DNA of 64,000 nt from Candidatus Poribacteria bacterium (GCA_965220415.1 OZ244829.1:2217209-2281208); one strand, 5' to 3'. Numbered from the stretch's first letter, positions 6,393 to 37,897 are shown. Program-made: numbers and translations. Notes: a model not told the origin generated them from the letters alone.

Positions 6393-6427
6393 CTCATTGC
6401 GTAAGCGAACGGTGGAAGGAAAACGGG

Positions 6428-13062: not shown

Positions 13063-13644
13063 TTATTCTTTGCACCTCTCTATTTGCGTTGTTCGGTTAA
13101 CCGGGTTTTCCTCGTCCAACGCCCAGTTCCGCGGGTTGTTTTTGATATAGGTACGGATATCGTCCAATGATTCATCGTCACGGATGACATGGTCGTAAAA
13201 GGAGCGCTGCCACAATTTTGCATTAAATGGTTTCCAACCCTTTGTTTTGACGCCTTCGATATACAACCTGGTTGTCAACGATTTGAATCGGTGTACAACC
13301 TCAGACAAGGAAAATGTAGGGACAACCCCCCGTGGTTGTCCGTTTGGGTTGAAACGCGCTTCGTTTGGGACGGCACGGGGGCCGTCCCCTACAATGATAA
13401 TTATTCCGTGCAAATGATTAGGCATTATCTGGAATTGGTCTGTCCGTATACCGTGATAAAATATCGATAATTCATGCCAGGTTTTTGCCACCATTTTTCC
13501 TGCGGCATTTGGAATCATCTGACCATCAACGATTTTACCAAATAATTCCTTTCGATTTTGCGTGCAGATTGTCACAAAATAATATCCCGGCTGAGAATAA
13601 TCGTAATGCTGTAGCCGATTCGGTTTTCGGATTTGGTTATTCAT
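13063..13644 (-). CDS. IS200/IS605-like Y1 (HuH) transposase of the REP-associated (RAYT) type
   Basis: YYFVTICT N-terminal strand, HuH motif MPNHLHGII, and C-terminal WQRSFYDHVIRD...YIKNNP. Annotated from the internal ATG (MNNQIRKPNRLQHYDY...); a TTG at 13668 extends it by 8 aa. A REP-like hairpin module is translated in-frame between the HuH motif and the C-terminal half. Confidence 0.8.
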   Translation of the reverse strand: MNNQIRKPNRLQHYDYSQPGYYFVTICTQNRKELFGKIVDGQMIPNAAGKMVAKTWHELSIFYHGIRTDQFQIMPNHLHGIIIIVGDGPRAVPNEARFNPNGQPRGVVPTFSLSEVVHRFKSLTTRLYIEGVKTKGWKPFNAKLWQRSFYDHVIRDDESLDDIRTYIKNNPRNWALDEENPVNRTTQIERCKE

Positions 13645-14128
13645 AATCCGTGCGGATTGTAGGGACAACCCCCCTGTGGTTGTCCGTTGGGGTTAATACG
13701 TGCTTCATTCGGGACAGCACGGGGACCGTCCCCTACAATGACAATTATTCCGTGCAAATGGTCACAAAATAATATCCTGCATGGGGATAATCGTAATACT
13801 GTAACCGATTCGGTTTTCGGGTTGGTTATTCATAATCCGTGCGGATTGTAGGGACAACCCCCTGTGGTTGTCCGTTGGGGGTTGATACGTGCTTCATTCG
13901 GGACGGCACGGGGACCGTCCCCTACAATGACAACTATTCCGTGCAAATGATCACAAAATAGTATCCCGCATGGGGACAATCGTAACACTGTAGCCGATTC
14001 GGTTTTCCGGTTTGGTTATTCATAATTCGTGCGGATTGTAGGGACAACCCCCCGTGGTTGTCCGTTGGGGTTGATACGTACTTCATTCGGGACGGCACGG
14101 GGACCGTCCCCTACATTTCCTAAACCCC
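13315..14128. repeat. Tandem array (~3 units of ~190 bp plus a half unit) of RAYT 5'-end + GTAG-led paired GC-rich hairpins (REP-like)
   Basis: Units start at 13580, 13771 and 13961 and end at ~14125. Each carries TGTAGGGACAACCCCC(C)GTGGTTGTCCG (GTAG + GGACAACC/GGTTGTCC hairpin) and GGGACGGCACGGGGACCGTCCCC (second hairpin), followed by a copy of the first ~100 nt of the transposase ORF. Extra-genic copies carry a 1-bp deletion that frameshifts the N-terminal peptide. An additional hairpin module sits at 13315-13417 inside the gene. Confidence 0.8.
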
Positions 14129-15235: not shown

Positions 15236-15475
15236 GTTTGGAGTTGGATTGATGAGGTAAATGGAATTTGCGTATCTTGGTACAAATCCGATTAGCTGTC
15301 AAGAGTAATCCCTCTACTTCCATGCGTCGCTTTAAGTATTTGAAACTAATTCGCAATCAGTAAGTGACAAGTGTGGAGATTGGAGGTAATATTCAGGTTC
15401 AGACTTGGAACCAATTGTGAGATTGGCGACCTGTTTATGCGCAATCTCGTACGACGTACGTCATTGCCTAAAATT

Positions 15476-16735
15476 ATGAAACTCAACCTAGTCGACCGTA
15501 AACCGCGTGTTCTTTTGTTGCTGCCGATGCGAACGTATCGCGCGCGCGATTTCTTGTCCGCCGCACGGCAACTCGACGTGGAAGTTGTCATCGCGTCAGA
15601 CCATCCGCAAACACTCTCCAAACTGTCGCCGCTGAAGTCGCTTTCGCTAGATTTTCATTGTCCGGAACCGGCCATGCAAAAAATCGCCGCATTTGCAAAA
15701 AACCACCCGATTGATGCTGTTATCGGCGTGGACGACGACACCACCATCCTTGGCACTATGGCAGCAAGAAAATTGTCGCTTCCACACAACACGATTGAAT
15801 CTGCCTATGCGACGCGGGACAAACATCAACTGCGAAAAATGCTTGTCAAGGCGGGCCTCCGTGCTCCGTGGTTCAAACTACGGTCTGTTAATGAAAACCC
15901 GGAGAAGATTGCGAATCAGATTGATTACCCTTGTGTCCTAAAGCCTCTTTCCCTTTCGGCGAGCCGAGGTGTTGTTCGCGCAAACGACCCAGCGAAATTC
16001 ACGGAGGCCTTTCATAGGGTGGTTGCCATCCTCCAATCATCAAACGAGGAAAACGAGCATCAGATTAATACGGAACATCTGCTAATAGAAGGCTTCATCC
16101 CTGGAACCGAGGTTGCGCTTGAAGGCATATTGGTTAGAGGAAAACTGAAGGTGCTTGCCATTTTCGACAAGCCGGATCCGTTAGATGGTCCTTTTTTCGA
16201 GGAAACACTCTACATAACACCGTCTCGACTTTCACCCGATGTTCAGCAGGAGATTTCTTCTTGCACAGCAGATGCGGCGAAGGCGCTGGGTTTGAGGGAG
16301 GGACCGGTACATGCCGAGCTTCGGATAAAGGACGGCTGTGCTTGGATGCTTGAAATCGCGCCTCGATCAATCGGGGGGTTATGCGCTCGCATCCTTCGCT
16401 TCGGCACCGGAATGTCATTAGAAGAATTGATTATCCGTCATGCCATTGGTCAGGACGTTGCTTCACTTGAACGCGAAGGAGCAGCCGCCGGCGTGATGAT
16501 GATTCCCATTCCGCACGCCGGAATCCTGCGAGAAGTGAGCGGTCAGGAACGAGCGGCGGCGGTAGAGAGGATTGAGGAGGTCGCAATTACGATTCCCATC
16601 GGTCAGGAAGTTGTGCCGCTGCCGGAGGGAAAACGCTACCTCGGATTCATCTTTGCGCGCGGCGACACTCCCGTTCATGTTGAAACTGCTCTGCGGGAAG
16701 CGCATCATCAACTAGAGTTTGCCATCAAACCATAG
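15476..16735 (+). CDS. ATP-grasp domain protein (carboxylate-amine/thiol ligase family)
   Basis: ATP-grasp core (KHQLRKMLVKAGLRAPWF...YPCVLKPLSLSASRGVVRAND, EGFIPGTEVALEGILVRGK). Probable start is the internal Met (MKLNLVDRKPRV...) at 15476. Transcribed divergently from the GT4 gene. Confidence 0.7.
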   Translation: MKLNLVDRKPRVLLLLPMRTYRARDFLSAARQLDVEVVIASDHPQTLSKLSPLKSLSLDFHCPEPAMQKIAAFAKNHPIDAVIGVDDDTTILGTMAARKLSLPHNTIESAYATRDKHQLRKMLVKAGLRAPWFKLRSVNENPEKIANQIDYPCVLKPLSLSASRGVVRANDPAKFTEAFHRVVAILQSSNEENEHQINTEHLLIEGFIPGTEVALEGILVRGKLKVLAIFDKPDPLDGPFFEETLYITPSRLSPDVQQEISSCTADAAKALGLREGPVHAELRIKDGCAWMLEIAPRSIGGLCARILRFGTGMSLEELIIRHAIGQDVASLEREGAAAGVMMIPIPHAGILREVSGQERAAAVERIEEVAITIPIGQEVVPLPEGKRYLGFIFARGDTPVHVETALREAHHQLEFAIKP

Positions 16736-16826
16736 ATGCAGTTACGCCCCACTGCCGCATACAAGACAGGAGCATCTGTTGCGCCGACGATAGCGCCCAC
16801 CCGGTAAATTCTGGATGACAAAACGA

Positions 16827-16855
16827 TTGCAAATCCCTAGGAAATCCATTATAAT
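16827..16855 (+). promoter_or_regulatory. Putative sigma70-type promoter for tatA-tatC (-35 TTGCAA, 17-nt spacer, -10 TATAAT)
   Basis: TTGCAA 16827-16832 and TATAAT 16850-16855 with an exact 17-nt spacer; about 80 bp upstream of tatA, whose RBS is AAGGAGG. Confidence 0.4.
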
Positions 16856-16936
16856 TACATAATCTCCTGTACACGATTGTCAACCTCTAGACGTGAAATT
16901 ACGCTGATAAATAAGGCTTAAGGAGGAGTTGGAACG

Positions 16937-17179
16937 ATGGGTGCACCGGGCGTATGGGAAGTGATTATTATCCTCGTGGTTGTCCTTGTGATATTTGGAC
17001 CTAAACGTCTACCGGAAATGGGACGATCACTTGGAAAGGCAATTCGAGAATTTAAAAGCGCCGGCAAGGAGGTTCAAAGAGAATTTACGGAATCGATAGA
17101 CCCCGACGCGGATTCGACAAAGCCTGCACCCCGAGACACTAAGGCAGGTTCAACCAAGCCGGAGAACAAAGGGACGTAG
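16937..17179 (+). CDS. tatA: Twin-arginine translocase subunit TatA/E
   Basis: N-terminal TM helix then amphipathic helix ([32 protein letters not shown]), 80 aa, strong RBS. Confidence 0.85.
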
Positions 17180-17194
17180 TCGACGAACGGCACC

Positions 17195-18025
17195 ATGTCA
17201 AATCCCGAAGATGCGTCAATGACTTTTTGGGAACATCTTGAAGAATTGAGACGGCGGCTTATTGTGATAGCAATCGCAATCTGCGCCTTCACTTTTCTAA
17301 GTCTAGGCTTTAGCCGGCCAATCGAGAATGTCCTGCGATTCCCGATGGAGACCTCCATCAACACCATACTGGCAGGCATCATTGACCGTACAGTTGGCGT
17401 AGAGGGGTCAATGATGGGTTTCCTCTCTGTTTCCCTGAAAGCAGGCGCATCAATTGTTGAAGCCGAACTGCTAAAAATTGGGCCGGTCGAAGGGATTATG
17501 GCATACCTAAAGATTAGCATAGCTTGCGGCTTGCTACTCGCTTCTCCGATTGTGCTCTATCAAATCTGGGCATTCATTTTTCCAGCTTTGACACAAAAAG
17601 AAAAAAAGTTTGCTCTACCGCTTTTCCTCGTTATTGTCGCCTTTTTTGTGGTCGGCGTCATATTTGCTTACCTAATTGTCACTCCGACCGTCCTTCACTT
17701 TTCCGCCAACCTTTTTCCCAACATGGCGAACCGTTGGGACATCGAAAAATACGTGAACTTCATCACCCGACTACTATTAGGGTTTGGTATCGCGTTTGAA
17801 CTTCCGATTGTCATGGCGTTTCTGTCTTGGATCGGAGTGGTCAACTCACGCGGATTTCGAGAGAAACAGAGTTTTGCCGTCGTGGGAATCTTTGTCATGT
17901 CGGCGCTGCTGACTCCGGCAGACCCGCTCTCCATGTTCCTGATGGCAGTTCCGCTAATCGTACTATACCAGTTGGGGATCTTTTTTGCCTTTCTCCTTGA
18001 ACGGGAATCCGAAAGCTATGCCTAA
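17195..18025 (+). CDS. tatC: Twin-arginine translocase subunit TatC
   Basis: Six predicted TM helices and the conserved TFWEHLEELRRRL N-terminal motif; lies 15 bp after tatA. Confidence 0.9.
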   Translation: MSNPEDASMTFWEHLEELRRRLIVIAIAICAFTFLSLGFSRPIENVLRFPMETSINTILAGIIDRTVGVEGSMMGFLSVSLKAGASIVEAELLKIGPVEGIMAYLKISIACGLLLASPIVLYQIWAFIFPALTQKEKKFALPLFLVIVAFFVVGVIFAYLIVTPTVLHFSANLFPNMANRWDIEKYVNFITRLLLGFGIAFELPIVMAFLSWIGVVNSRGFREKQSFAVVGIFVMSALLTPADPLSMFLMAVPLIVLYQLGIFFAFLLERESESYA

Positions 18026-18770
18026 TTCCAATCTACAAGAGCAACTTGGCTTGCTTCACCAACTTCAACAACTTGAACTGACCATCTTGTCATTGCATCA
18101 ACAACGCCAAGCCATACCGCTAAAGATTGCAAAGCTGGAAGAAGGTTTTCAGGTACATCAGGGGGCATTGGACGCAAAGAAAGAAGCGCTCGCGGAGGCG
18201 GAACGAGAATTGCGTTCAAAAAATGCGGAACTTACGGATCAACAGGAGCAACGTGGAAAATACGAAACTCAACTGCGTGAAGTGAAAACCAACAAGGAAT
18301 ACCAAGCACTGGATAACGAAATCAGATTTTCACAGGAAAAGGAAGCAGAAATTGAAGATGCTATCCTCGGATTCATGTTGGATATCGATCGATTTCAAGA
18401 GGAGCTTCGGCAGGCGCAGGCTTCCTTTAACGCAGAGAAAGAGAAAGTCAGTAGCCGGAAAGCCACATACGAACAGGAGGGGAGAGATTTAGAAGCGGCG
18501 GTCACGGCGCAGCAGCAGAAACGCACACGTTTTTCGCCTGACATAGATAAGGAGTTGATGACCGGTTATCAAGCGTGGGGTAGGCGCAACAAATCAGCGT
18601 TTGTGTCGATAGTAAAAAATAATGCATGCGGCGGTTGCCGAATCGCAATCCCACCCCAGACACTCAAGGAAGCCCGCAAATTCGAAAAGGTTGTCCAGTG
18701 CTCCAGCTGCAAACGTATCATTTACCCCCTGCCTCAAGAAGAAAAAGAAGCCGATCAAGCGAGTGGATAA
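18018..18770 (+). CDS. Zinc-ribbon domain protein (COG1579 family) with long coiled coil
   Basis: Coiled-coil body followed by a C-terminal CGGC...C(x2)C zinc ribbon (ACGGCRIAIPPQ...VQCSSCKRI). Its ATG at 18018 overlaps the tatC stop by 8 bp. Confidence 0.7.
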   Translation: MPNSNLQEQLGLLHQLQQLELTILSLHQQRQAIPLKIAKLEEGFQVHQGALDAKKEALAEAERELRSKNAELTDQQEQRGKYETQLREVKTNKEYQALDNEIRFSQEKEAEIEDAILGFMLDIDRFQEELRQAQASFNAEKEKVSSRKATYEQEGRDLEAAVTAQQQKRTRFSPDIDKELMTGYQAWGRRNKSAFVSIVKNNACGGCRIAIPPQTLKEARKFEKVVQCSSCKRIIYPLPQEEKEADQASG

Positions 18771-18960
18771 CGAGCGCGATAGAAATACTTTCAAGCGAAC
18801 GCATAGTGCGCAAGATTTCCATTCGCCTTGGGATCTCTATCGCGGTGGCTGTTTGCTCCGTTGATCCTATTCGGTCAGTTGATCGAAAGAGACCCTTTCA
18901 AGCGAGTGGATAACAAGCAGGATTTACTATTGCAGTCACTGTCCATGTCCATTGATCGAT
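18760..18960. repeat. Two copies of dispersed-repeat module 2 (CAAGCGAGTGGATAAC[GA]AG...GATAGAAAT)
   Basis: CAAGCGAGTGGATAACGAGCGCGATAGAAAT at 18762 and CAAGCGAGTGGATAACAAGCAGGAT at 18898. The module is shared with 9995-10040, 42735-42790, 52142-52240, 58060-58150 and 59498-59600. Confidence 0.4.
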
Positions 18961-19068
18961 AGAAATCCTACCAGCCTTGTTGGAATCGGAATTTGGCGCC
19001 AGTGCAAATTTTTTTTGAGGTTGATTATCCTACCGCTCCGAGTCATCAAGGTAAAACAAGGCATGAAA

Positions 19069-19090
19069 GCGCGGGACGTTGTGCCCGCGC
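19069..19090 (-). terminator. Possible intrinsic terminator of the 1310-aa surface-protein gene
   Basis: GCGCGGG-ACGTTGTG-CCCGCGC hairpin lies 30 nt downstream of the minus-strand stop (19119-19121) and is followed on that strand by TTTCAT. Confidence 0.35.
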
Positions 19091-19118
19091 TATTGAGAAA
19101 AGGAAGAATCCATCCCTC

Positions 19119-22100
19119 CTACTTACCGATCAACATCTTGCGAGTTGCAGCGAAATCATCGGCGGTTAGGGTGTAAAAGTATACGCCACTGACAACACGC
19201 TCACCGACACTGTTGCGGCCATCCCAATACGCCGCAAGACTTCGTTCGGTGTAATAACTAGCTACCTGATACCCTAGATTCAAATGACGCACTAACGTAC
19301 CGTTGATGTCGTAAATCGAGATTTGTACCTCGGCATCATTGGCTAACCCGTACGGAATCCACGTCTCCGGGTTAAACGGATTTGGGTAGTTGGGAAAAAG
19401 CACAGTCTCTGCCGGGGTTAGAGTTGCCAGAAGATGCTCTAGGAAAAGAACGCCAAGCTGCAATGTGGCGTCCTTCAGATCAAGTTCTCTCGCTTGTGCC
19501 AACCACTCTCCCACGTCCGCTCTTGTAGGAGGGATCTCCAGGTTGCGACTCCAGGCTGAAGGCGCGGCGGCTGCGTTCCCAAGCGCACTCACCACCAACA
19601 CCAAATCAAGGATGTTCACTATTCCATCCCCGTTGACATCCGCGGGCAAATCTGCATCTTCGGTCCCGAGACCTGACGCCACCGAGACCAAATCCAAAAA
19701 ATTCACAACATCGTCCCTGTTTACATCCTCCAGGATAGGCGGCAATTCGGCGGTTGTTGTGGCGGTCTGGCTCTGCTGAATCCCTGTAACAGCCACTTCG
19801 ACGGTGTTCGTTCCTGGATTTGGGCCCAATGTGAGGGTACTCTCCGCCCGACCATCACTATCCGTCGTGGCACTGGTTACACTGAGTGTCCCACCGCCAC
19901 CGGTAACCGTGAAGGTGACCTGCACACCCGGTAAGGGTTCGCCGGATCGATCTGCCACGTATACGACAATCGGTCTGGGAAGCGCTTCACCGATGAACCC
20001 CTTTTGGTCGAATCCGGAGATTATCCAGAACGCCAAAGGCGTTCGGATGCCTCGGGCAGTAAACGTCTCTGTTCGCGTAATCCCCGCTACAGTCACGTCA
20101 ACGCTGTTCGTTCCCGGATCTGGTCCCAACGTTAGGATACTCTCCGCCCGACCATCGCTCTCCGTCATGACGCTTGTGGCGCTCAGCGTCCCACCGCCAG
20201 CGGTAACCGAGAACGTTACTTCGGCGCCCGGCATAGGTTCGTCAAACTGGTCTCGCACTTCCACGATAAACGGGTTTTCAAGCGCCTCACCGTACGGCCC
20301 CTCTTGGTCGTCTCCCGAGATTATCCCCAATGTCGTGGGAATCCTGATGCCTTGGGCAGTAAACGTCTGGTTCTCCTGAATCCCCGAAATGGACACGGTC
20401 ACTGTATTCGCTCCCGGATTGGATCCCAACGTGAGGGTACTCTCGGCTCTTCCGTTCGCATCAGTCGTAACGCTTGTGGCGCTCAGCGTCCCGCCGCCAC
20501 TGCTGACCGAGAACGTGACTTGAACACCAGCGAGGGGTTTATCCGACTGATCTCGCACCTCCACCACAAACGGGTTCGCAAGCGCCGAACCGGGCAGTCC
20601 CTGTTGGCCGCCGCCCGAGATTATCTCCAATGTCTTGGGAATTCTGATGCCTTGGGCAGTAAGCGTCTGCTTCTCCTGAAGTCCAGTAACGGACACAGTA
20701 ACTGTATTTGCTCCCGGATTGACTCCCAACGTCAAGGTACTCTCGGCTCGTCCGTTGGCGTCGGTGATTGCGGTGGTGGCACTCAGCGATCCACTGCCCG
20801 CGAGGACAGTAAAGCCCACAGTAATCCCTTCCATCGGAGCATCGTACTGATCGCGGACTTCAACCACAAACGGGTTCGCCAAAGCTTCACCTGTCAAACC
20901 GTTCTGATTATCTCCCGAGAAGATTGACAGAGCCGTTGGAATCGGTGGTGGGAGAACCGCTTCAGCACTAAAGACCGCTGTTTGGGAAAGACCTTCGACA
21001 CTCGCCTCGACGGTGTTCGTGCCGGGACTGCCTCCAAGCGTCAGCGTACTCTCGGCTCGTCCGTTGGCGTCGGTAATTGCGGTGGTGGCACTCAGCGATC
21101 CACTGCCCGCGAGGACAGTGAACCTCACAGTAATCCCTTCCATCGGGGCATCGTACTGATCGCGGACTTCAACCACAAACGGGTTCGCCAACGCTTCACC
21201 TGTCAAACCGTTCTGATTATCGCCGGATATACTCTTTTGGCTTGTCGGTTCTAACACAGGTGGTGTCGTCACTGGCGGATCGATTGTCGTTGGAGGTTGT
21301 GTTGTAATTTGTGGTTGCTGCAGTGACTCTTGTTGCTGCTGTTGTGACGATGGCGATGATTCTTGCTGCTGTTGTGACGATGGCGATGATTCTTGTCGCT
21401 GTTGTGACGGTGGCGATGGTTCTTGCTGTTGCTGTGACGATGGCGGTGGGGTACCAACTGTCGCGGTTCCGCTGGTAGATTTGGAGCCGACCGTCGCTGT
21501 GACCGTGTATGAACCGGAGGCGCTGTTCCCAAGTGTTAGTGTTGTGGAGGCCTGGCCGTTGCTGCCGGTTGTCGCACTTGTGGAATTCAACGACGCATTC
21601 CCATCGCCTGATGTGATACTAAACGTCACGGTTTTCCCTGACGCGGCACTCCCATCCTCCTGAACTTCAACAGTAAACGTCAATGCATCACCAGGGGCAC
21701 CAGATCCGGGACCACTTACCACACTTATCGATGATTCTGGCGGCGACTGCGGGGATGGGGTGCCAACTGTCGCGGTTCCGCTGGTAGATTCGGAGCCGAC
21801 CGCCGCTGTGACCGTGTATGAACCAGAGGCACCGCCCCGAAGTATCAGTAGCGTCTTTGCTCGTCCATTGCTATTAGTTGCTACATTTGTAGGATTTAGC
21901 AACACAGTCCCATCGTCTGGACTCAGGCTGAACGTCACGGTTTTCCCTGACGCGGGACTCCCATCCTCCTGAACCTCAACAGTAAACATTAGGCCCTGAC
22001 CGGGATTGCCAGATCCGGGACCACTTACCACACTTATCGATAATTGTGGTGTGTCAACCGTCGCTGTCCCGCTCGTAGATGTGCTGCCAACTGTCGCTGT

Positions 22101-23051
22101 GAGCGTGTATGAGCCGGCGGCGCTGTTCCCAAGTGTTAGCGTTGTGGATGCCTGGCCGTTGGTACCGGTTGTCGCACTTGTGGGATTCAGCGACGCATTT
22201 CCATCGCCTGATGTGATACTAAACGTCACGGTCTTCCCTGACGCTGCACTGTCATCCTCCTGGACCTCAACAGTAAAGGTCAATGCAGCACCGGGGGCAC
22301 CAGACCCGGGACCACTTACCACACTTATCGATAATTCTGGCTGCGTCGGCGGCGATGGGGTCTCAACTGTCGCAGTCCCGCTGGTAAATTTAGTGCCGAC
22401 TGTCGCTTTGACCGTGTATGAGCCGGCGGCGCTGTTCCCAAGTGTTAGTGTTGTGGATGCTCGCCCGTTGGTACCGGTTGTCGCACTTGTGGGATTCAGC
22501 GACGCATTCCCATCGCCTGATGTGATACTAAACGTCACGGTCTTCCCTGACGCTGCACTGTCATCCTCCTGGACCTCAACAGTAAAGGTCAATGCAGCAC
22601 CGGGGGCACCAGACCCGGGACCACTTACCACACTTATCGATAATTCTGGAGGCGGTGGTGGGGCCTTAATTGTCGCAGATCCGCTCGCAGATGCGTCGCC
22701 GACCGTCGCTGTGACCGTGTATACGCCGGAGGATCCGCTCCCGGTAGACAGTGTGGTCGTCACCGACTGGTTGCTAACGGACGTCGCGCTTGTGGGACTC
22801 AGAGACACGGTCCCATCATCTGGGCTCACACTAAACGTCACCGTTTGACCTCCCGCGGGGTTTGAATCCTCTCCGACATAGACATATGCACTAAACCTAA
22901 ACGAACTTCCGGGGCTGCGGGCAAAAGGAGTATAAGTCATTATAATGGAGACTTCTTCCGTTTCCTCCTCTTCCGTTGCCTCCAATGGCATCAACACACA
23001 TACCATAAATAGTGCGATGAAACAAATCAGTGATTTTTTCATAAGTTTCAA
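19119..23051 (-). CDS. Giant secreted surface protein: tandem Ig-like (Big) domains, Q/S/P-rich linker, dockerin-like repeats, C-terminal T9SS (Por) sorting domain
   Basis: Signal peptide. Repeated ~95-aa units (SISVVSGPGSG...TFTVEVQEDDSAASGKTVTFS and GDNQNGLTGEALANPFVVEVRDQYD...) resemble Big_2/invasin-like folds. DVNRDDVVNFLDLV...DVNGDGIVNILDLVLVV are dockerin type I repeats. The C-terminus NYPNPFNPETWIPY...GVYFYTL matches the Por_Secre_tail signature. Confidence 0.85.
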   Translation of the reverse strand: MKLMKKSLICFIALFMVCVLMPLEATEEEETEEVSIIMTYTPFARSPGSSFRFSAYVYVGEDSNPAGGQTVTFSVSPDDGTVSLSPTSATSVSNQSVTTTLSTGSGSSGVYTVTATVGDASASGSATIKAPPPPPELSISVVSGPGSGAPGAALTFTVEVQEDDSAASGKTVTFSITSGDGNASLNPTSATTGTNGRASTTLTLGNSAAGSYTVKATVGTKFTSGTATVETPSPPTQPELSISVVSGPGSGAPGAALTFTVEVQEDDSAASGKTVTFSITSGDGNASLNPTSATTGTNGQASTTLTLGNSAAGSYTLTATVGSTSTSGTATVDTPQLSISVVSGPGSGNPGQGLMFTVEVQEDGSPASGKTVTFSLSPDDGTVLLNPTNVATNSNGRAKTLLILRGGASGSYTVTAAVGSESTSGTATVGTPSPQSPPESSISVVSGPGSGAPGDALTFTVEVQEDGSAASGKTVTFSITSGDGNASLNSTSATTGSNGQASTTLTLGNSASGSYTVTATVGSKSTSGTATVGTPPPSSQQQQEPSPPSQQRQESSPSSQQQQESSPSSQQQQQESLQQPQITTQPPTTIDPPVTTPPVLEPTSQKSISGDNQNGLTGEALANPFVVEVRDQYDAPMEGITVRFTVLAGSGSLSATTAITDANGRAESTLTLGGSPGTNTVEASVEGLSQTAVFSAEAVLPPPIPTALSIFSGDNQNGLTGEALANPFVVEVRDQYDAPMEGITVGFTVLAGSGSLSATTAITDANGRAESTLTLGVNPGANTVTVSVTGLQEKQTLTAQGIRIPKTLEIISGGGQQGLPGSALANPFVVEVRDQSDKPLAGVQVTFSVSSGGGTLSATSVTTDANGRAESTLTLGSNPGANTVTVSISGIQENQTFTAQGIRIPTTLGIISGDDQEGPYGEALENPFIVEVRDQFDEPMPGAEVTFSVTAGGGTLSATSVMTESDGRAESILTLGPDPGTNSVDVTVAGITRTETFTARGIRTPLAFWIISGFDQKGFIGEALPRPIVVYVADRSGEPLPGVQVTFTVTGGGGTLSVTSATTDSDGRAESTLTLGPNPGTNTVEVAVTGIQQSQTATTTAELPPILEDVNRDDVVNFLDLVSVASGLGTEDADLPADVNGDGIVNILDLVLVVSALGNAAAAPSAWSRNLEIPPTRADVGEWLAQARELDLKDATLQLGVLFLEHLLATLTPAETVLFPNYPNPFNPETWIPYGLANDAEVQISIYDINGTLVRHLNLGYQVASYYTERSLAAYWDGRNSVGERVVSGVYFYTLTADDFAATRKMLIGK
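21341..21460. repeat. 39-bp tandem repeat (~3 copies) inside the surface-protein CDS encoding the SSPSSQQQQE linker
   Basis: TCTTGCTGCTGTTGTGACGATGGCGATGAT-type units repeat at 21341, 21380 and 21419. In-frame, translated as SSQQQQESSPSSQQQQ... Confidence 0.6.
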
Positions 23052-23433
23052 GTCCTTTCATTTCGTATCATGGTAAATCAAAAATTAGTGGTTTATGGTT
23101 GACACGTGATGGCATAGTATTGCCGGGACAAGATATCCGATTCACACGTGCCTGAAACCTGCGATATAACAACATTTTTGCCCTGAAAATGATCCCATAT
23201 ATATTCGATGATGTCAAGGAAAAATGAACTTTTTTACCACTTCCGTAAAATTTTTTCTGCGGTCTGAAATATGTTTAGGCTAATTGCATACTACCCCAGA
23301 CACTGATGTCGCAGCGCTTGAAAATATGATGGTTTGGGTGATATATTCATTATGCAACTAAAACATCATCGAAATTGCCATTGTGGGGAAATCAGCAGAT
23401 CGAGTTGATTAATCTCATCAAAGCGACTGTGTT

Positions 23434-23462
23434 TTGACAATCCTCTAAGCGTATGATACAAT
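23434..23462 (+). promoter_or_regulatory. Near-consensus sigma70 promoter (-35 TTGACA, 17-nt spacer, -10 TACAAT)
   Basis: TTGACA 23434-23439 and TACAAT 23457-23462 with an exact 17-nt spacer. It drives a small ORF whose AGGAGG RBS is at 23475-23480. Confidence 0.45.
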
Positions 23463-23488
23463 GCATAGAGTAAGAGGAGGTGAGAACC

Positions 23489-23686
23489 ATGGCATCCCGC
23501 AATACCTACAAGTATCATTTGAAACGAGGCGATAAAATCATTATTGCATCGCCAGGAAATCACTATACATTTGAGATTCAGATGTCTCGGTTGTTGCTGA
23601 GTTTCTCAAGAGTATTGCGTTTGATATTGGCGGCGGGGTTGAATCAAATTCCTGCCGCCTTTTTGCATTGTTACCGAGTAGTTTAA
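23489..23686 (+). CDS. Small hypothetical protein (65 aa) in a compact promoter-RBS-ORF-terminator unit
   Basis: ATG lies 8 nt after AGGAGG (MASRNTYKYHLKRGDKIIIASPGNHYTFEIQ...). An intrinsic terminator hairpin lies inside the annotated 3' end, so the true product may be shorter or this may be a leader/sRNA. Confidence 0.35.
   Translation: MASRNTYKYHLKRGDKIIIASPGNHYTFEIQMSRLLLSFSRVLRLILAAGLNQIPAAFLHCYRVV
23629..23665 (+). terminator. Rho-independent terminator hairpin (GGCGGCGGGG...CCTGCCGCC + TTTTTG)
   Basis: GC stem of 6-9 bp with a 12-nt loop, followed by a T5 run on the plus strand. Confidence 0.5.
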
Positions 23687-23865
23687 TCCTGATTTGTTAC
23701 GCTTGCTTAGAGCAATCACGTCAATGCGCGCCGTGCTAGAAAGGATCATAACAGGGAGGCAGAAAAGAACCGGAACGTGTCGCGACCCATTGCAATTGTG
23801 GATTAGCAAGTTGGTACTTGTGAACACGGGGAAAAGCCAAATCAAACCTGCCGAGGGATTGCGCG

Positions 23866-24279
23866 ATGAATACTACAAAAGAGGCGGAATTTGATTATCA
23901 AACTTATTTTAAAGAAAACAGGCCAGATCCAGCACGGATTAATCGCGGACCAAAGGCACGTCAAAAACGACGTGAGGCCGTGGTATGTAACATTCGCGGA
24001 CTTTCTCACTATGAAGACGGTCTGTATGACTGTGCTATTGAAGATTATACGAAAGCGATAGATGCCAATGCCGATTTCGCCGAAGGTTATAACAATCGCG
24101 CTGTTGCTTGGATACATTTGAGCGAATGGGACAAAGCCCGAGAAGATTTGAAGACCGCTAAAGAAAAGGGTGTAGACATCATCGTCGCATTTCATAACGA
24201 CTACGAAAAAGTCTCGGATTTCCAGCAGAAAACAGGAATACAGTTGCCGGAAGACATCGCCGCAATGCTGACAAACTAA
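23866..24279 (+). CDS. TPR-repeat protein (137 aa)
   Basis: Two to three TPR-like motifs (DYTKAIDANADFAEGYNNRAVAWIHLSEWDKAREDL). Lies immediately upstream of the SIR2-like gene on the same strand. Confidence 0.65.
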   Translation: MNTTKEAEFDYQTYFKENRPDPARINRGPKARQKRREAVVCNIRGLSHYEDGLYDCAIEDYTKAIDANADFAEGYNNRAVAWIHLSEWDKAREDLKTAKEKGVDIIVAFHNDYEKVSDFQQKTGIQLPEDIAAMLTN

Positions 24280-24483
24280 TCAATCGGTAAGTAGATTTCC
24301 TATTGTGGAGACACTGTCTGAGTCACGAATTAAGGGATTTCTACCGCACTCACTATCCGTTCGGACGGTCGGATTACGCGGATGACAGGGACAAGAGGCG
24401 ATTCTCACTGTACGCGGATTTGATCTTTGGCAATCGAAGATTCAGACGGTCATCAAAAAATTCAACATCATTAAAGCAAAAAC

Positions 24484-27400
24484 ATGAAAATTAAGAATAT
24501 TGACTTCCCCAAACCCCTGTTAGATGCCTTGCATGCAAATAAACTGGTGGTGTTCGCCGGGGCAGGAGTTTCAATGGGTGACCCTGCCCATCTACCAAAT
24601 TTCAAATCGTTAACCGATATGATCGCCCAACGTACTGGCAAAAACTTGCGCAAGGATGAAAAGTTCGAAGAATTCCTCGGAAGATTGCACGATGACGAAG
24701 TAAAGGTTCACGAAATTGCAGCCGGTGTACTTTCCCAAGAAAGTTTGCAAGCAACCAAACTACATAAGAATCTTTTACAGCTTTATCCCAACATCGGGCC
24801 AGTTCGCCTAGTGACCACCAATTTCGATCTCCTGTTTGAGCAGGCCGCAGAGGGAATGTTCGACAGTCTACCAGAGGTGTTTCGGGCACCTGCGTTACCC
24901 TTGGGGCGCCAGTTCAACGGCATTATTCATGTTCACGGTTCCGTCTCAAAACCCGGCCAGATGGTGCTTACAGATAAGGATTTCGGTCTCGCCTATCTGA
25001 CCGATGGATGGGCTCGACACTTCCTTGTTGAACTGTTCAGTAATTTTACAATCCTCTTTGTTGGCTATAGTCATGACGACACGATTATGAATTATCTGGC
25101 GCGTGCGCTTCCGGCCGGTTCAGAGGATCGGCGCTTCGTTTTAACCGGTTCAGAAGACAGTAAAAAGCCAGGCGATTGGCGTTTGCTCGGAATTCATCCC
25201 ATTACCTACCCACAGACTCACAAGGAAGACCATAGCAAACTTGAGACGGGTGTCCGCGGCCTCGCCAATCATGTCCGACGCAGTGTCGTTGATTGGCATC
25301 GCGAGATCACTGCAATTGCTGAAAACCCGCCTCCTCTAGCTGATGACGAGAAAATAGTGGGAACTATTGAGGAGGCGCTTGGAGATAAGACAAAGACTCA
25401 ATTCTTCACAAAAGCAGCGTCAAACCCAGATTGGATTGATTGGCTCGACGAGCACGGGTGCTTAAAGGCGCTGTTTGGTAGCGATTCGTTAAGAGACCAG
25501 GATATGGCTCTGTCTTGGTGGGTGGCAGATCGGTTTTTATACGACCATGCAAACAGAATTTTCCTTCTAATTAGCAAATACGATACGCGATTACATCCAA
25601 AGTTTTGGCACGATTTAGCTCGGAAGATTGGTAGGGATATGGAGGCTTCCCGAGATAAGGTAGTTCTATCTCGCTGGATTTCATTGCTGCTATCAACGGC
25701 GCCAAGCGACGGGGACAGCACCAATGGGGTGTACGTAGATACCGGCAATCTTCTTGATCAGATAGGCAAACGCTGTATTGCACACGGGATGTTAGAAGAT
25801 TTGTTGAGAATCTTCGATACCATGATGCAGAGTCGTTTATTAATAAGGGGTGGTTATCCGCTGCTCAGTGACGATGGAGAAGAGGAGAATCTCTTATTTG
25901 ACGCGAAATTGTCGCTAATCGGTAAATATGGCGGACTGAATAAGTTATGGGAAGGGGGACTGAGACCGAATTTATTTCAAGTAGCCGAGCCATTACTAGA
26001 ATCGGCTGTCAGACGGTTGGAAGAATGGTATCTTACATTACACACTTGGGGAAAGGCAAATCGCGAGTTGGAACCTGCTAGCATCCGGCGTTCCGCCATT
26101 GAACCTCACGAACAGGACAGGCATCCTCAACCGGTTGACGCGATAATAGATGTTGTTCGAGACTGCCTTGAGTCACTGGCATTGAACCAGCAAGACTCGG
26201 CGGCGCGGTGGTGTGATAAGCTCGTGCAGTCGGATGCACCATTGCTGCGCCGGCTGGCGGTACATGGACTATCCATACGCACCGACCTGTCACCGGACGA
26301 CAAAATTCAGTGGTTGCAAGAACATATAGACCTGCACGAATACGCTATTCACCACGAAATATTCCAGGCGGTGTACCAAGCATACCCCAAGATGAGTTCG
26401 GAACACCGAAAAACTCTGATTGAAGCCGTGAGGGCGTACCGTTGGCAGCACGAAGATTGTGAGGATGATAGGAAATTCACGTCACGAGTACATTTCGACT
26501 GGCTTCATTGGCTCCACAAATCAGATCCGACCTGTCAGACGGCTAAACAGGCTTTGAACGAGTTACAAGCGGAATACCCAGATTTCGAGCCAAAGAAATA
26601 TCCTGATCTGACATCTTGGATTGAATCAGGTTGGGGCGACCTACCGAACTCATGGACGTCTGAAGAACTCCTGTCAAGACCGACATCTTATTGGCTAGAC
26701 AAACTACTGTCGACTGAGGACTCAGAAAGAAATCGACCGAGATTCGGAATGCTAATTAATAGCATCACAGAAGCGACGGAACAGGACTTCGCTTGGGGTT
26801 TAAGTTTGGCTGATGAATTGGATGCCTCTGAAAAATGGGATTCAGAACTCTGGTACGCCTTGATTCGCGCTTGGTCGAAAATGGCGTTGAACGAAGATAA
26901 GCGCGCACAAGTGGTTTACTGGCTTGGCAGAACCGAACTGTATGCGAAACATTGTCGTGAAATTGCTGATGCGCTTTGCACGCTAGTGAAGAATGGCGGG
27001 CTGCCCTACTCCTTAAACCTACTCCATCAAGCCAACGAGATTGCTGCCACGTTATGGCGTAATCTTGATCGGACCCAATCGATCGAGGAGAAGGAGAACT
27101 GGCTAGACACTGCCATGAACCACCCAGCAGGGTGCCTTGCATACTTCTGGATGTCCAGTTTCTTCCTTTGGCGAGAGCAACAAGACCCTAAGCCTACAAC
27201 TTTCAGTGATGAGTATCTTAGGGCACTGTCAGACATTATGGTAGACCAGTCACTACCGGGGAGGCTGGCACGAACTGTTCTTGCCAGCCAATTGCACTTC
27301 CTGCTGACAGTAGATGAGGGCTGGACACGAGATAATGTGCTACCGCTATTTGAGCCTGAATGTGAAGATTTTCAAGCAGCATGGGACGGCTTTGCAAGGT

Positions 27401-28044
27401 GGGGAAATCTCAATCCTGCTGTCGCTGAAGCGATGGCAGGCCTATTCCTCAAGGCTGTTACTCGGATTAGCAACGATCTTCCCAATCAATGTGAGCCCTT
27501 CATTCGACATTATACTGATATGCTCGCATATTTTGCTGAAGACCCCCTTTGTGAATGGATTCCTAAGTTGTTTCAACATAGTAACCAAGAAACTAAGGAT
27601 TCCTTTGCATCGGCGGTGGGCAACCGTTTGCAATACTTAGCTGAAGCAGAACAACAGGACGTACTACGAAAATGGTGGATCTCTTGGCTCAAGCCCTTTT
27701 GGATGAATCGCTTACAAGGGATGTTCGCTAAACTGGAGCCTGGCGAGATTTCGCACATACTGGACTGGTTGCCACATTTGACACCCGTATTTCCGGAAGC
27801 TGTTGATTTAGCAATTCAGATGCCAAGGGGCCGGTTGCAACCTTGCTGGGTTTTAGACTACCTAAGAGAAAGTAATTTGTGGCAGAAACACCCCGAGTCA
27901 ATAGCGAAGTTGATTCTGTATCTTTGGGAATGCGAGTTCAGGTTTACTCGGCTTCTAGACCAAGAATTCATTGACTCGCTTCTTCAGGCGGACGTTTCAT
28001 TGGAACTTAAGAAGGAATTAGAGGACATCAAAATCCAACTCTAG
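24484..28044 (+). CDS. SIR2-like (SIR2_2/DHS-like NAD-binding) domain protein with ~900-aa alpha-helical C-terminal domain; DSR1/DSR2-like defence-associated sirtuin candidate
   Basis: N-terminal ~270 aa carry LVVFAGAGVS (Gly-rich NAD loop), TTNFDLLFEQA (conserved Asn, N113) and IIHVHGS (conserved His, H151), arranged as in prokaryotic SIR2_2 domains. The remainder is W/L-rich helical repeats with no other recognisable enzymatic motif. Confidence 0.8.
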   Translation: MKIKNIDFPKPLLDALHANKLVVFAGAGVSMGDPAHLPNFKSLTDMIAQRTGKNLRKDEKFEEFLGRLHDDEVKVHEIAAGVLSQESLQATKLHKNLLQLYPNIGPVRLVTTNFDLLFEQAAEGMFDSLPEVFRAPALPLGRQFNGIIHVHGSVSKPGQMVLTDKDFGLAYLTDGWARHFLVELFSNFTILFVGYSHDDTIMNYLARALPAGSEDRRFVLTGSEDSKKPGDWRLLGIHPITYPQTHKEDHSKLETGVRGLANHVRRSVVDWHREITAIAENPPPLADDEKIVGTIEEALGDKTKTQFFTKAASNPDWIDWLDEHGCLKALFGSDSLRDQDMALSWWVADRFLYDHANRIFLLISKYDTRLHPKFWHDLARKIGRDMEASRDKVVLSRWISLLLSTAPSDGDSTNGVYVDTGNLLDQIGKRCIAHGMLEDLLRIFDTMMQSRLLIRGGYPLLSDDGEEENLLFDAKLSLIGKYGGLNKLWEGGLRPNLFQVAEPLLESAVRRLEEWYLTLHTWGKANRELEPASIRRSAIEPHEQDRHPQPVDAIIDVVRDCLESLALNQQDSAARWCDKLVQSDAPLLRRLAVHGLSIRTDLSPDDKIQWLQEHIDLHEYAIHHEIFQAVYQAYPKMSSEHRKTLIEAVRAYRWQHEDCEDDRKFTSRVHFDWLHWLHKSDPTCQTAKQALNELQAEYPDFEPKKYPDLTSWIESGWGDLPNSWTSEELLSRPTSYWLDKLLSTEDSERNRPRFGMLINSITEATEQDFAWGLSLADELDASEKWDSELWYALIRAWSKMALNEDKRAQVVYWLGRTELYAKHCREIADALCTLVKNGGLPYSLNLLHQANEIAATLWRNLDRTQSIEEKENWLDTAMNHPAGCLAYFWMSSFFLWREQQDPKPTTFSDEYLRALSDIMVDQSLPGRLARTVLASQLHFLLTVDEGWTRDNVLPLFEPECEDFQAAWDGFARWGNLNPAVAEAMAGLFLKAVTRISNDLPNQCEPFIRHYTDMLAYFAEDPLCEWIPKLFQHSNQETKDSFASAVGNRLQYLAEAEQQDVLRKWWISWLKPFWMNRLQGMFAKLEPGEISHILDWLPHLTPVFPEAVDLAIQMPRGRLQPCWVLDYLRESNLWQKHPESIAKLILYLWECEFRFTRLLDQEFIDSLLQADVSLELKKELEDIKIQL

Positions 28045-28331
28045 CCGGAAACCTAAACAATCCCAACTTAACTCGTTCGACTATGAACGGAAAAACGTAG
28101 AGTGGATACCGCACGGCAAGAGAAGAGAACGGGGATGTAAAATTCTAGACACTACCGGATTTCAGTTCTGACAGCAGGCGGGTGATGCCCTCTTGGATCT
28201 TTGCTTCGACGGACGGCTCCGGGATAACCGATGTTTTAGCGACGCCTCATAACCACCGGCAAGTCCAAGGTAATGACCCTTCTTCGTGACGATGCCGCAC
28301 GATTGCGGAAGTCAACTGGGTTAGCACTTGA

Positions 28332-37884: not shown

Positions 37885-37897
37885 AGTCACTTTGGGG

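What the first reader, a model, noticed from the sequence alone, without database searches (positions are those of the whole stretch)
19119..23051. T9SS-cargo giant adhesin with dockerin repeats and recombination-prone internal repeats
The Por/T9SS C-terminal sorting signature (NYPNPFNPETW...GVYFYTL) is diagnostic of type IX secretion, which constrains the organism's lineage. The same protein also carries two dockerin-type Ca-binding repeats (DVNRDD..., DVNGDG...), an unusual pairing. The body is built of near-identical ~285-bp DNA repeats encoding Big-like domains, plus a 39-bp VNTR encoding SSPSSQQQQE. These repeats also generate the long spurious plus-strand ORFs in the track. Copy number is likely phase-variable between strains.
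Basis: partly seen in the sequence, partly recalled or inferred. Interest (0 to 1): 0.5.

Follow-up and report, generated by a model that had tools for sequence, protein, structure and literature searches.

The report
Strain-variable poribacterial surface Ig-repeat protein
This is a real 1307-residue secreted surface protein of a Candidatus Poribacteria bacterium: ten Ig-like domains followed by a C-terminal 'dockerin + helical hairpin + T9SS-like sorting domain' module that hundreds of poribacterial proteins share, in a phylum where the matching secretion machinery has never been found.

Summary
The C-terminal domain passes TIGR04183 (28.5 vs 23) and PF18962 (33.2 vs 27). Dockerin_1 passes (25.5 vs 22.9) with both Ca loops intact, and ten Big_1 domains are found. 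The long repeats have periods of 291–309 bp and are at most 89–91% identical (longest exact repeat 140 nt). The short repeat has a 30-bp period, not 39.

LepA and the cassette place the window in Candidatus Poribacteria. There the dockerin–helical-hairpin–CTD unit is a standard cassette on very different passengers (WD40, LRR, cohesin, peptidases). Outside the phylum only the CTD matches.

A 99.6%-identical strain differs in this gene by one exact 30-bp unit (in frame) and has the same number of Ig units. Five other strains lack the whole 4.7-kb gene segment. So the gene varies in size and in presence or absence, not by phase variation.

No T9SS core gene is in the window. Kamke et al. 2014 found none in poribacterial genomes. 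I could not scan whole genomes, so "T9SS cargo" remains an inference.

The parts
19119..23042 (-). Coding sequence of the surface protein (1307 aa + stop).
   Evidence: ORF list. The sequence shows AAAGGA about 10 nt before the ATG at 23042. A near-identical copy exists in an independent assembly, L087.
22977..23042 (-). Sec-type signal peptide MKKSLICFIALFMVCVLMPLEA|TEEE (aa 1-22)
   Evidence: By inspection of the translation: a basic n-region, a 17-residue hydrophobic core and a PLEA motif. The paralogue P0121 has the same layout, MKKQLIRFVVLFLICIWMPLGA. No predictor was run.
21447..22955 (-). Five A-type Ig-like units (A0 degenerate; A1-A4 of 103/97/103/97 aa; DNA period 309/291 bp)
   Evidence: the repeat finder D1/D4, TRF period 309, pairwise identities 59-89% and a 140-nt exact repeat between A1 and A2. 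Matched by Big_1, Big_3_5, PKD and MG2.
21240..21446 (-). Ser/Pro/Gln-rich hinge (aa 533-601). It contains the 30-bp tandem repeat at 21333-21445 (3.8 copies, encoding ~SSPSSQQQQE).
   Evidence: TRF and translation. One exact unit (21333-21362) is missing in strain L087.
19752..21239 (-). Five B-type Big_1 domains (B1-B5, 100 aa each, DNA period 300 bp)
   Evidence: Pfam Big_1/Invasin_D3, TRF period 300, pairwise identities 53-76% (91% over 218 nt for B1/B2).
19575..19730 (-). Dockerin (aa 1105-1156), two EF-hand-like Ca loops each followed by a helix
   Evidence: PF00404 25.5 bits vs GA 22.9. D/N at loop positions 1, 3, 5, 9 and 12 in both loops; these columns are invariant in 30 homologues. 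Model helices at cassette residues 18-26 and 47-59.
19398..19574 (-). Conserved helical hairpin between dockerin and CTD (aa 1157-1215). No Pfam or NCBIfam model covers it.
   Evidence: No family hit on this stretch. Conserved motif W-L...G...LE-LL..L-PKET-LL. Model helices 77-89 and 95-110. Searched alone it finds 342 representative clusters and always ends ~92 aa from the C-terminus.
19122..19397 (-). C-terminal beta-sandwich sorting domain (T9SS type A-like / FlgD_ig-like), aa 1216-1307
   Evidence: TIGR04183 28.5/23. PF18962 33.2/27; FlgD_ig 23.5/27; CHU_C 18/27. Model pLDDT 85-96. Foldseek hits to PorU 6za2, PorZ 5m11 and substrate CTDs in SprA complexes 8glk_D, 8gl8_D, 8gl6_D.
19068..19091 (-). 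GC-rich hairpin followed by UUUCAU, ~30 nt after the stop: a terminator candidate
   Evidence: RNA fold of 19040-19125(-): -25.7 kcal/mol, z = -2.27. It was not picked up by the strict terminator scan.
23189..23217 (-). Sigma-70-like promoter candidate (TTGACA-17-TGnGATCAT), ~150 nt upstream of the ATG
   Evidence: Consensus scan, 10/12 matches. The number of such sites in the region is not above the shuffled expectation, so this is only a candidate.
18756..23422 (.). Strain-specific 4.67-kb segment carrying the whole gene with its flanking signals. Present in the window and L087; absent from five strains whose flanks are 96-98% identical.
   Evidence: megablast/blastn of the window against L084-L087, L093 and L094.
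19804..22848 (+). Antisense ORFs inside the gene (19804-20379, 20304-20927, 22006-22848): non-coding by-products
   Evidence: They lie wholly within the minus-strand CDS. No Pfam match for the two tested.

Best explanation
The gene encodes a cell-surface, fibril-like Ig-repeat protein of a Candidatus Poribacteria bacterium.

Shown:
- A Sec-type N-terminal signal.
- Ten Big_1-type Ig domains in two blocks, joined by a Ser/Pro/Gln hinge.
- A C-terminal cassette of dockerin, helical hairpin and a ~92-aa beta-sandwich that is homologous in sequence and fold to T9SS type A C-terminal domains.
- The cassette is a phylum-wide module on many unrelated passengers.

Inferred:
- After Sec export, the CTD directs the protein across or onto the outer membrane by a T9SS-like route whose machinery is still unidentified in this phylum.
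- The Ca-binding dockerin then docks to cohesin modules carried by sister cassette proteins, tying surface proteins into a network.
- The C-terminus would be cell-proximal, so the Ig array projects outward as a spacer or adhesin.

Shown for evolution: the gene changes by in-frame gain or loss of 30-bp hinge units, by duplication of ~300-bp Ig units among paralogues, and by presence or absence of the whole 4.7-kb segment among strains. This is consistent with a variable surface antigen or adhesin. It is not an on/off phase-variable locus.
For: - Domains pass curated cutoffs: Big_1 287 bits x10, Por_Secre_tail 33.2/27, Dockerin_1 25.5/22.9; TIGR04183 28.5/23.
- Cassette model: CTD pLDDT 85-96. 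Its fold matches PorU and PorZ CTDs and substrate CTDs bound to the SprA translocon (TM-target 0.60-0.66).
- Outside Poribacteria, the CTD part alone matches at ~40-50% identity in Bacteroidota, Ignavibacteria, Chlorobiaceae, Cloacimonadota, Zixibacteria, Marinimicrobia, Calditrichia, Latescibacterota and Gemmatimonadota.
- Lineage: LepA 93-96% to unnamed assemblies, and all named hits are Ca. Poribacteria. Full-length cassette matches are found essentially only in Ca. Poribacteria MAGs.
- The cassette is a module: 6558 hits, the top 120 at 57-75% identity on Big_1, WD40, cohesin, LDL-receptor-B and EF-hand bodies. CARDB, VWA, M36 peptidase and FG-GAP bodies also carry it. The hairpin alone finds 342 clusters at a fixed distance from the C-terminus. 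The Ca-loop and NYPNPFNPETWI-Y columns are invariant.
- Cohesin is above GA in cassette proteins (34-59 bits vs 24.1).
- Strain variation: L087 differs by exactly one 30-bp unit, and five strains lack 18756-23422.
- Paralogue P0121 has 11 A-type unit cores against 5 in the window, and its units are up to 99% identical to each other.
Against: - No T9SS core component is in the 64-kb window, in four annotated homologue loci, or among the candidates picked from 733 kb of poribacterial loci. These are weak negatives.
- Kamke et al. 2014 report no Por structural genes in poribacterial single-cell genomes.
- The CTD scores are only 5-6 bits above cutoff. Paralogous CTDs pass FlgD_ig but not Por_Secre_tail.
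- There is no distinct ligand-binding head domain, so 'adhesin' is inferred from architecture only.
- No cohesin gene is in the window.
- The signal peptide was judged by eye.
- The 30-bp difference rests on two short-read-type assemblies.
Confidence: 0.6

Rival explanations
1. Canonical T9SS cargo. Poribacteria possess a (perhaps divergent) SprA/PorV/PorU/PorKLMN system. The CTD is recognised by PorV/SprA, cleaved by a PorU sortase and replaced by an anionic-LPS anchor. The dockerin then sits next to the membrane anchor.
For: - The CTD passes TIGR04183 and PF18962.
- Its fold matches solved T9SS CTDs.
- It is 40-50% identical to CTDs of T9SS-bearing phyla.
- The cargo repertoire resembles that of Bacteroidota, e.g. 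an M36 peptidase with a CTD.
- So many strictly conserved CTDs imply a dedicated recognition machinery.
Against: - Kamke et al. 2014 found no structural Por genes in Poribacteria.
- No paper in the library reports T9SS machinery in the phylum.
- None was seen in the window or in the sampled loci.
- NCBI taxonomy places Poribacteria outside the FCB group, under 'Bacteria candidate phyla'.
Confidence: 0.4
2. The C-terminal beta-sandwich is not a secretion signal here. It is an FlgD-Ig-like structural or anchoring domain, and the protein leaves the periplasm by another route (type II secretion, vesicles or an undescribed system). The cassette as a whole would be a Poribacteria-specific sorting and tethering device.
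For: - Most poribacterial cassette CTDs pass FlgD_ig (PF13860) and fail Por_Secre_tail.
- The best sequence hit in the PDB is FlgD, and the top fold hit is the FlgD hook cap.
- No T9SS genes are reported in the phylum.
- The invariant helical hairpin has no counterpart in known T9SS cargo.
Against: - The window's own CTD passes both T9SS models.
- Strict C-terminal placement and the YD-x-x-G, G-x-Y and terminal basic motifs are those of type A CTDs (own knowledge).
- FlgD_ig-type C-terminal domains in FCB phyla are generally regarded as T9SS CTDs (own knowledge).
Confidence: 0.25
3. A component of a cellulosome-like degradative complex rather than an adhesin. The dockerin plugs the protein into a cohesin scaffoldin together with glycoside hydrolases or peptidases, as proposed for Cloacimonadota.
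For: - The dockerin is present, and cohesins exist in the lineage.
- There is a precedent in Ca. Stygibacter: a cohesin scaffoldin with a T9SS CTD plus dockerin-bearing enzymes (PMC8542988).
- Peptidase passengers carry the same cassette.
Against: - This protein has no catalytic or carbohydrate-binding domain.
- Here the dockerin and the anchor domain are on the same chain.
- Most cassette passengers are WD40, LRR or Ig repeats, not enzymes.
- No multi-cohesin scaffoldin was seen.
Confidence: 0.1
4. Assembly artefact or pseudogene: a repeat-collapsed or chimeric ORF.
For: - The repeats cause assembly trouble elsewhere: L087 has a 10-N scaffold gap inside the B block.
- Long-read assemblies split homologues by frameshifts.
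Against: - The reading frame is uninterrupted for 3.9 kb with a coherent domain order.
- An independent assembly reproduces it, with 2 substitutions and one 30-bp indel.
- Repeat units are at most 89-91% identical, which is divergent enough to assemble.
Confidence: 0.03

Closest known systems
T9SS type A cargo proteins of Bacteroidota/FCB phyla (TIGR04183 / PF18962 CTD; e.g. gingipain RgpB, F. johnsoniae RemA, NucA)
   Same: N-terminal Sec signal. A ~90-aa C-terminal beta-sandwich at the extreme C-terminus that passes both HMMs. Fold match to solved CTDs. Ig-repeat passengers are common among such cargo.
   Different: The host phylum is Poribacteria, where no T9SS machinery has been reported. 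The CTD is always preceded by a dockerin and a conserved helical hairpin. Most paralogous CTDs score as FlgD_ig rather than Por_Secre_tail.
Cohesin-dockerin surface assemblies anchored by a T9SS CTD in Cloacimonadota (Ca. Stygibacter; PMC8542988)
   Same: Type I-like dockerins, cohesins and a T9SS-type CTD occur together in a Gram-negative, non-clostridial lineage.
   Different: There the CTD is on the cohesin scaffoldin and the dockerins are on separate enzymes. Here the dockerin and CTD are fused on every cargo, some cargo carry one cohesin as well, and most passengers are non-enzymatic repeat proteins.
Intimin/invasin-type Big_1 adhesins (inverse autotransporters)
   Same: Tandem Big_1 (Invasin_D3-like) Ig domains forming a stalk.
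   Different: No N-terminal beta-barrel or LysM, and no C-terminal lectin-like head. The intimin equivalog scores 96.8 bits vs a cutoff of 1400. Anchoring would be C-terminal, the opposite polarity.
Poribacterial 'eukaryote-like' repeat proteins carrying TIGR04183 (Kamke et al. 2014, PMC3909097)
   Same: Same phylum and same C-terminal domain. That paper noted TIGR04183 on WD40 and other repeat proteins and the missing secretion genes.
   Different: That paper does not mention a dockerin ('dockerin' occurs 0 times in its text) or the conserved hairpin, i.e. the tripartite cassette. The present gene is an Ig-repeat member with documented strain-level variation.

Membership tests
T9SS type A C-terminal sorting domain (TIGR04183 / PF18962) | HMM score at or above the curated cutoff | tested here: met
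   TIGR04183 28.5 vs 23; PF18962 33.2 vs 27. The margin is small. Paralogues score 21-26 bits, below GA, and pass FlgD_ig instead.
T9SS type A C-terminal sorting domain (TIGR04183 / PF18962) | Domain at the extreme C-terminus of a protein that has an N-terminal Sec signal | tested here: met
   The match covers residues 1222-1308 of 1310. The signal peptide MKKSLICFIALFMVCVLMPLEA was judged by inspection only.
T9SS type A C-terminal sorting domain (TIGR04183 / PF18962) | Beta-sandwich fold like solved CTDs | tested here: met
   Model pLDDT 85-96 in the CTD. Foldseek hits: PorU 6za2, PorZ 5m11, 8glk_D, 8gl8_D, 8gl6_D. The FlgD Ig domain scores equally well.
T9SS cargo (functional membership) | Genome encodes the T9SS core (SprA/Sov, PorV, PorU, PorK/L/M/N or GldK/L/M/N) | not testable with these tools
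   None in the window or in the sampled loci. Whole genomes could not be scanned. Kamke et al. 2014 found none in single-cell genomes.
T9SS cargo (functional membership) | CTD cleaved by the PorU sortase and the protein attached to anionic LPS | not testable with these tools
   Needs proteomics or biochemistry.
T9SS type B CTD (CHU_C / TIGR04131) | HMM score above cutoff | tested here: not met
   PF13585 CHU_C 18 bits vs 27. TIGR04131 is not among the NCBIfam hits.
Dockerin type I (PF00404) | HMM above GA, and two 12-residue Ca-binding loops (D/N at positions 1, 3, 5, 9, 12) each followed by a helix | tested here: met
   25.5 vs 22.9. DVNRDDVVNFLD and DVNGDGIVNILD. These columns are invariant in 30 homologues. 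Helices appear in the model.
Dockerin type I (PF00404) | A cognate cohesin in the same organism, with Ca-dependent binding | tested here: inconclusive
   Cohesin domains above GA exist in poribacterial cassette proteins but none is in this window. Binding was not tested.
Intimin/invasin inverse autotransporters | Equivalog HMM; N-terminal beta-barrel and C-terminal lectin-like domain | tested here: not met
   NF033627 96.8 bits vs cutoff 1400. Only the Ig repeats match.
Phase-variable (contingency) locus | A repeat tract whose unit changes shift the reading frame or promoter spacing, or an invertible element | tested here: not met
   Periods are 30, 291, 300 and 309 bp, all multiples of 3. The observed strain difference is an in-frame 30-bp unit.
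Cellulosome-type complex | A multi-cohesin scaffoldin plus dockerin-bearing catalytic subunits | tested here: not met
   This protein has no catalytic or CBM domain. Only single cohesins were seen on cassette proteins. No genome-wide search was possible.

The most novel reading that the evidence does not exclude
Poribacteria lack a recognisable T9SS. The invariant tripartite cassette (dockerin, helical hairpin, CTD-like beta-sandwich) would then be the address tag of an undescribed outer-membrane export and tethering pathway. That pathway would display the phylum's many 'eukaryote-like' repeat proteins (WD40, LRR, LDL-receptor-B, Ig) on the cell surface and link them through cohesin-dockerin contacts. 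This would answer how sponge-symbiont effector-like proteins reach the host interface.
Probability: 0.25. Interest if true: 0.75.

Novelty: new variant of a known kind. Interest (0 to 1): 0.42.

Why it matters
The single gene is an ordinary member of a large poribacterial family. The C-terminal module it carries matters more, because it bears on an open question. Kamke et al. 2014 noted Por-type sorting domains on poribacterial eukaryote-like proteins without any Por machinery. Robbins et al. 2021 state that the export route of sponge-symbiont eukaryote-like proteins is unknown.

This analysis shows three things:
- The sorting domain always comes with a dockerin and a conserved helical hairpin.
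- Cohesins occur on sister proteins.
- The complete unit is essentially confined to Poribacteria.

That turns a vague annotation into testable hypotheses: a machinery screen on the now-available complete chromosomes, cohesin-dockerin binding assays, and reporter export. The strain comparison also gives direct evidence that such surface proteins sit in a hypervariable genomic spot next to defence genes, and that they change length by hinge-repeat slippage.

Tried and rejected
1. Exact-protein look-ups of the adhesin (both possible starts) and of LepA found nothing on record. An exact 70-nt DNA scan of the genome collection also found nothing. The window's own genome is therefore not in these collections.
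2. I looked for orthologues among the best full-length homologues. P0121 and P0123 lie in unrelated genomic contexts, so they are paralogues and not usable for allele comparison.
3. Many 'short' cassette proteins turned out to be fragments of frameshifted or truncated gene calls, not free-standing cassettes.
4. I searched for T9SS machinery in several ways. All window ORFs of 150 aa or more were scanned. A gldKLMN size-pattern search in 41 poribacterial loci (733 kb) gave one candidate, which proved to be haem/cytochrome genes, and looser candidates that proved to be ordinary metabolism. Nine CTD-bearing ORFs of 900-1350 aa contained no C25/PorU-like domain. These negatives have low power.
5. 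The metagenome scan for further alleles found only paralogues at 61% identity or less.
6. The sequence search against the PDB gave only a marginal FlgD hit.
7. Rfam and tRNA scans of the window found nothing.
8. I considered an integrase or transposon origin for the 4.7-kb segment. There is no mobile-element gene and no obvious target duplication at the junctions. The nearest such gene is a RAYT-like one 5 kb away, and it is conserved in all strains.

Full report
**Observation**

The ORF reported at 19119..23051 (minus strand) exists and is intact. The sequence upstream shows an ATG at 23042 preceded by AAAGGA. The N-terminus, MKKSLICFIALFMVCVLMPLEA|TEEE, has the layout of a Sec signal peptide. 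This was judged by inspection, and the paralogue P0121 has the same layout.

**Domains**

- Pfam finds Big_1 (287 bits, ten stretches).
- Por_Secre_tail scores 33.2 bits (GA 27) over the last ~90 residues.
- Dockerin_1 scores 25.5 bits (GA 22.9).
- FlgD_ig (23.5) and the type B domain CHU_C (18) stay below their cutoffs of 27.
- In NCBIfam, TIGR04183 scores 28.5 against a cutoff of 23. The intimin equivalog scores 96.8 against 1400, so only the Ig repeats resemble intimin.
- Both dockerin Ca loops (DVNRDDVVNFLD, DVNGDGIVNILD) have D/N at positions 1, 3, 5, 9 and 12.

**Repeats**

TRF and the repeat finder, together with my own pairwise comparison, show two repeat families.
- There are five A-type units: A0 is degenerate, and A1-A4 alternate between 309 and 291 bp.
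- There are five B-type units of 300 bp.
- The best pairs are 89% identical (A1/A2, A2/A4), or 91% over 218 nt (B1/B2). Most pairs are 53-76% identical.
- The longest exact direct repeat is 140 nt (A1 vs A2).
- The short repeat has a 30-bp period (3.8 copies, 21333-21445) and encodes ~SSPSSQQQQE within a Ser/Pro/Gln hinge between the two Ig blocks.

'~285 bp', '39 bp' and 'near-identical' are thus inaccurate. The plus-strand ORFs inside the gene are antisense by-products, and the two that were scanned match no family.

**Whose gene is it?**

LepA from the same window is 93-96% identical to proteins on unnamed 6.2-6.5 Mb ENA contigs. Every named hit is Candidatus Poribacteria, at 74-78%. NCBI taxonomy places this phylum among the 'Bacteria candidate phyla', not in the FCB group.

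**The C-terminal cassette**

The last 210 residues find 6558 proteins. The best 120 are 57-75% identical, mostly over the entire query, and sit on very different bodies: Big_1, WD40, cohesin, LDL-receptor class B, EF-hand. The only names given are 'T9SS type A sorting domain-containing protein [Candidatus Poribacteria bacterium]'.

An alignment of 30 of these proteins shows invariant columns in three places: the Ca loops, a helical stretch (W-L...G...LE-LL..L-PKET-LL), and NYPNPFNPETWI-Y.

A scan of one genome per species with this alignment gave two kinds of match.
- Matches covering the whole cassette were found essentially only in Ca. Poribacteria MAGs. The exceptions were two 'uncultured bacterium' records, one weak 28% match in an Ignavibacteriaceae MAG, and a partial 36% match in a Gemmatimonadota MAG.
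- Matches to the CTD alone (~40-50% identity) came from Bacteroidota, Ignavibacteria, Chlorobiaceae, Cloacimonadota, Zixibacteria, Marinimicrobia, Calditrichia, Latescibacterota and Gemmatimonadota.

The 59-residue stretch between the dockerin and the CTD has no Pfam or NCBIfam model. Searched alone against 1.84 billion representatives, it finds 342 clusters, and in full-length hits it always ends ~92 residues before the C-terminus.

An AlphaFold model of the cassette (pLDDT 78) shows the two dockerin helices, a disordered spacer, a helical hairpin and a confident seven-strand beta-sandwich. The sandwich matches the CTDs of PorU (6za2) and PorZ (5m11), the substrate CTDs bound to the SprA translocon (8glk_D, 8gl8_D, 8gl6_D; TM-target 0.60-0.66), and the FlgD Ig-like domain.

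**Partners and passengers**

Cohesin domains above GA (34-59 bits vs 24.1) occur directly upstream of the dockerin in several cassette proteins. Complete poribacterial ORFs with the same tail carry CARDB, WD40, VWA plus LDL-receptor-B, an M36 peptidase, cohesin plus BNR, or FG-GAP repeats. In these paralogues the CTD passes FlgD_ig and fails Por_Secre_tail, the reverse of the window's protein. The poribacterial CTD therefore lies on the border between the two models.

**Is there a T9SS?**

- No T9SS core component is encoded in the window.
- None is in four annotated homologue loci.
- None was among the candidates I could pick from 733 kb of poribacterial loci. These negatives have low power.
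- Kamke et al. 2014 (PMC3909097) noted TIGR04183 on poribacterial eukaryote-like proteins. [quoted passage not shown]
- No paper in the library reports T9SS machinery or dockerins in Poribacteria.
- Robbins et al. 2021 (PMC8163846) say that the export route of sponge-symbiont eukaryote-like proteins is unknown.

'T9SS cargo' is a homology-based inference, not an established fact for this organism.

**Strain comparison**

TatA and TatC of the window are identical in several public contigs.
- L087 is collinear with window 15259-27210 at 99.58% identity.
- Within the adhesin, L087 differs by an exact 30-bp deletion (21333-21362, identical to the TRF consensus unit, in frame), by two substitutions, and by a 10-N scaffold gap with a 1-bp loss. 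The gap explains why the gene is called as two ORFs there.
- The number of ~300-bp Ig units is the same in both strains.
- Five other strains with 96-98% identical flanks (L084, L085, L086, L093, L094) lack window 18756-23422 altogether. Four of them carry a BrnT-toxin gene and a 280-aa gene nearby. They also lack 24099-28156, which holds the SIR2_2/DUF4020 gene.
- The left junction lies in the last codons of the Zn-ribbon gene. No mobile-element gene or obvious target duplication marks the junctions.

Among paralogues the unit number varies widely. P0121 has 11 A-type unit cores against 5 in the window, with units up to 99% identical to each other. P0361, a metallopeptidase-LRR protein, shares a last Big_1 domain 83% identical to B5 in addition to the cassette, which suggests exchange of 3' modules.

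The gene thus varies by hinge-repeat slippage, by unit amplification over longer time scales, and by presence or absence. Since every period is a multiple of three, this is not phase variation.

**Expression signals**

A -35/-10-like site lies ~150 nt upstream, but such sites are not enriched over shuffled sequence. A GC-rich hairpin followed by U-rich sequence lies ~30 nt after the stop (z = -2.3). Both are inside the strain-specific segment, so the gene looks like a self-contained unit.

**Mechanism**

The shown parts are the Sec-type signal, the Ig array, the hinge, the dockerin, the hairpin and the T9SS-like CTD.

The inferred parts are as follows. After Sec export, the CTD takes the protein to or across the outer membrane by a T9SS-like route whose machinery is unidentified. 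The dockerin binds cohesins of sister proteins in a Ca-dependent way. The Ig array then projects from the surface as a spacer or adhesin.

The closest described arrangement is the cohesin scaffoldin with a T9SS CTD plus dockerin-bearing enzymes proposed for Cloacimonadota (PMC8542988). There the anchor and the dockerin are on different proteins.

**Verdict**

The individual gene is an ordinary member of a large poribacterial family. The tripartite cassette and the unresolved secretion route give it moderate interest.

Noticed in passing
window 24099-28156 (gene 24484-28044, +; small TPR gene 23866-24279, +): A 1186-aa SIR2_2 + DUF4020 protein (defence-like) lies in a second strain-specific insertion right next to the adhesin. 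It is present in the window and L087 and absent from five related strains.
   Followed up: partly
L084 13009-14107, L086 8389-9487, L094 12548-13646 (the site equivalent to window ~23.5-28.2 kb): Strains lacking the adhesin and SIR2 segments carry a BrnT-toxin gene (94 aa) plus a 280-aa gene instead, and L085 carries neither. The interval between the Zn-ribbon and aminotransferase genes is a hotspot for accessory genes.
   Followed up: partly
window 37898-42226 (-), with a HAD hydrolase at 37171-38094 (-): A 1442-aa fusion protein: fatty-acyl reductase (NAD_binding_4/Sterile) + AMP-binding adenylation domain + PP-binding carrier + acyltransferase. This is an unusual single-chain lipid-building enzyme.
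   Followed up: no
window 13063-13668 (-): A REP-associated tyrosine transposase (RAYT / Y1_Tnp)-like gene, below the curated cutoff (58.9 vs 80). It is conserved at the same place in all related strains.
   Followed up: no
window 515-7837: A cluster of an ABC-2 permease (515-2143, -), an ABC ATPase whose GldA match is far below cutoff (3143-3946; 144.6 vs 402.6 bits), a 779-aa NPCBM_assoc/CARDB protein (4053-6392) and a TolC-like outer-membrane protein (6428-7837). It is not a gliding or T9SS system by the thresholds.
   Followed up: partly
window 54380-58003 (+): A 1207-aa UvrD-type helicase fused to a PD-(D/E)XK nuclease (AddA/RecB-like).
   Followed up: no
window 33541-36069 (-): An N6/N4 DNA methylase (34044-34838) flanked by two ORFs with no family match (33541-34062, 35041-36069). 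This may be a restriction-modification or other defence module.
   Followed up: no
L002 7243-10585; L087 4990-5000: Public assemblies often break these repeat-rich genes. Frameshifts split one metallopeptidase-LRR-Big_1-cassette gene into three calls in a long-read contig. A 10-N scaffold gap splits the adhesin in L087. Many database 'proteins' of 190-370 aa with this cassette are such fragments.
   Followed up: yes
L001 8281-11017; L003 16.7-24 kb; L002 1-365: Paralogous cassette genes in other poribacterial genomes also sit next to integrases and defence genes (SMODS, SduA_C, ThsB_TIR, SLATT). These surface-protein genes seem to reside in variable genomic islands generally.
   Followed up: no
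window 22954-22983: A 15-bp tandem duplication (2 copies) encodes the acidic EEETEE stretch right after the predicted signal-peptide cleavage site.
   Followed up: no
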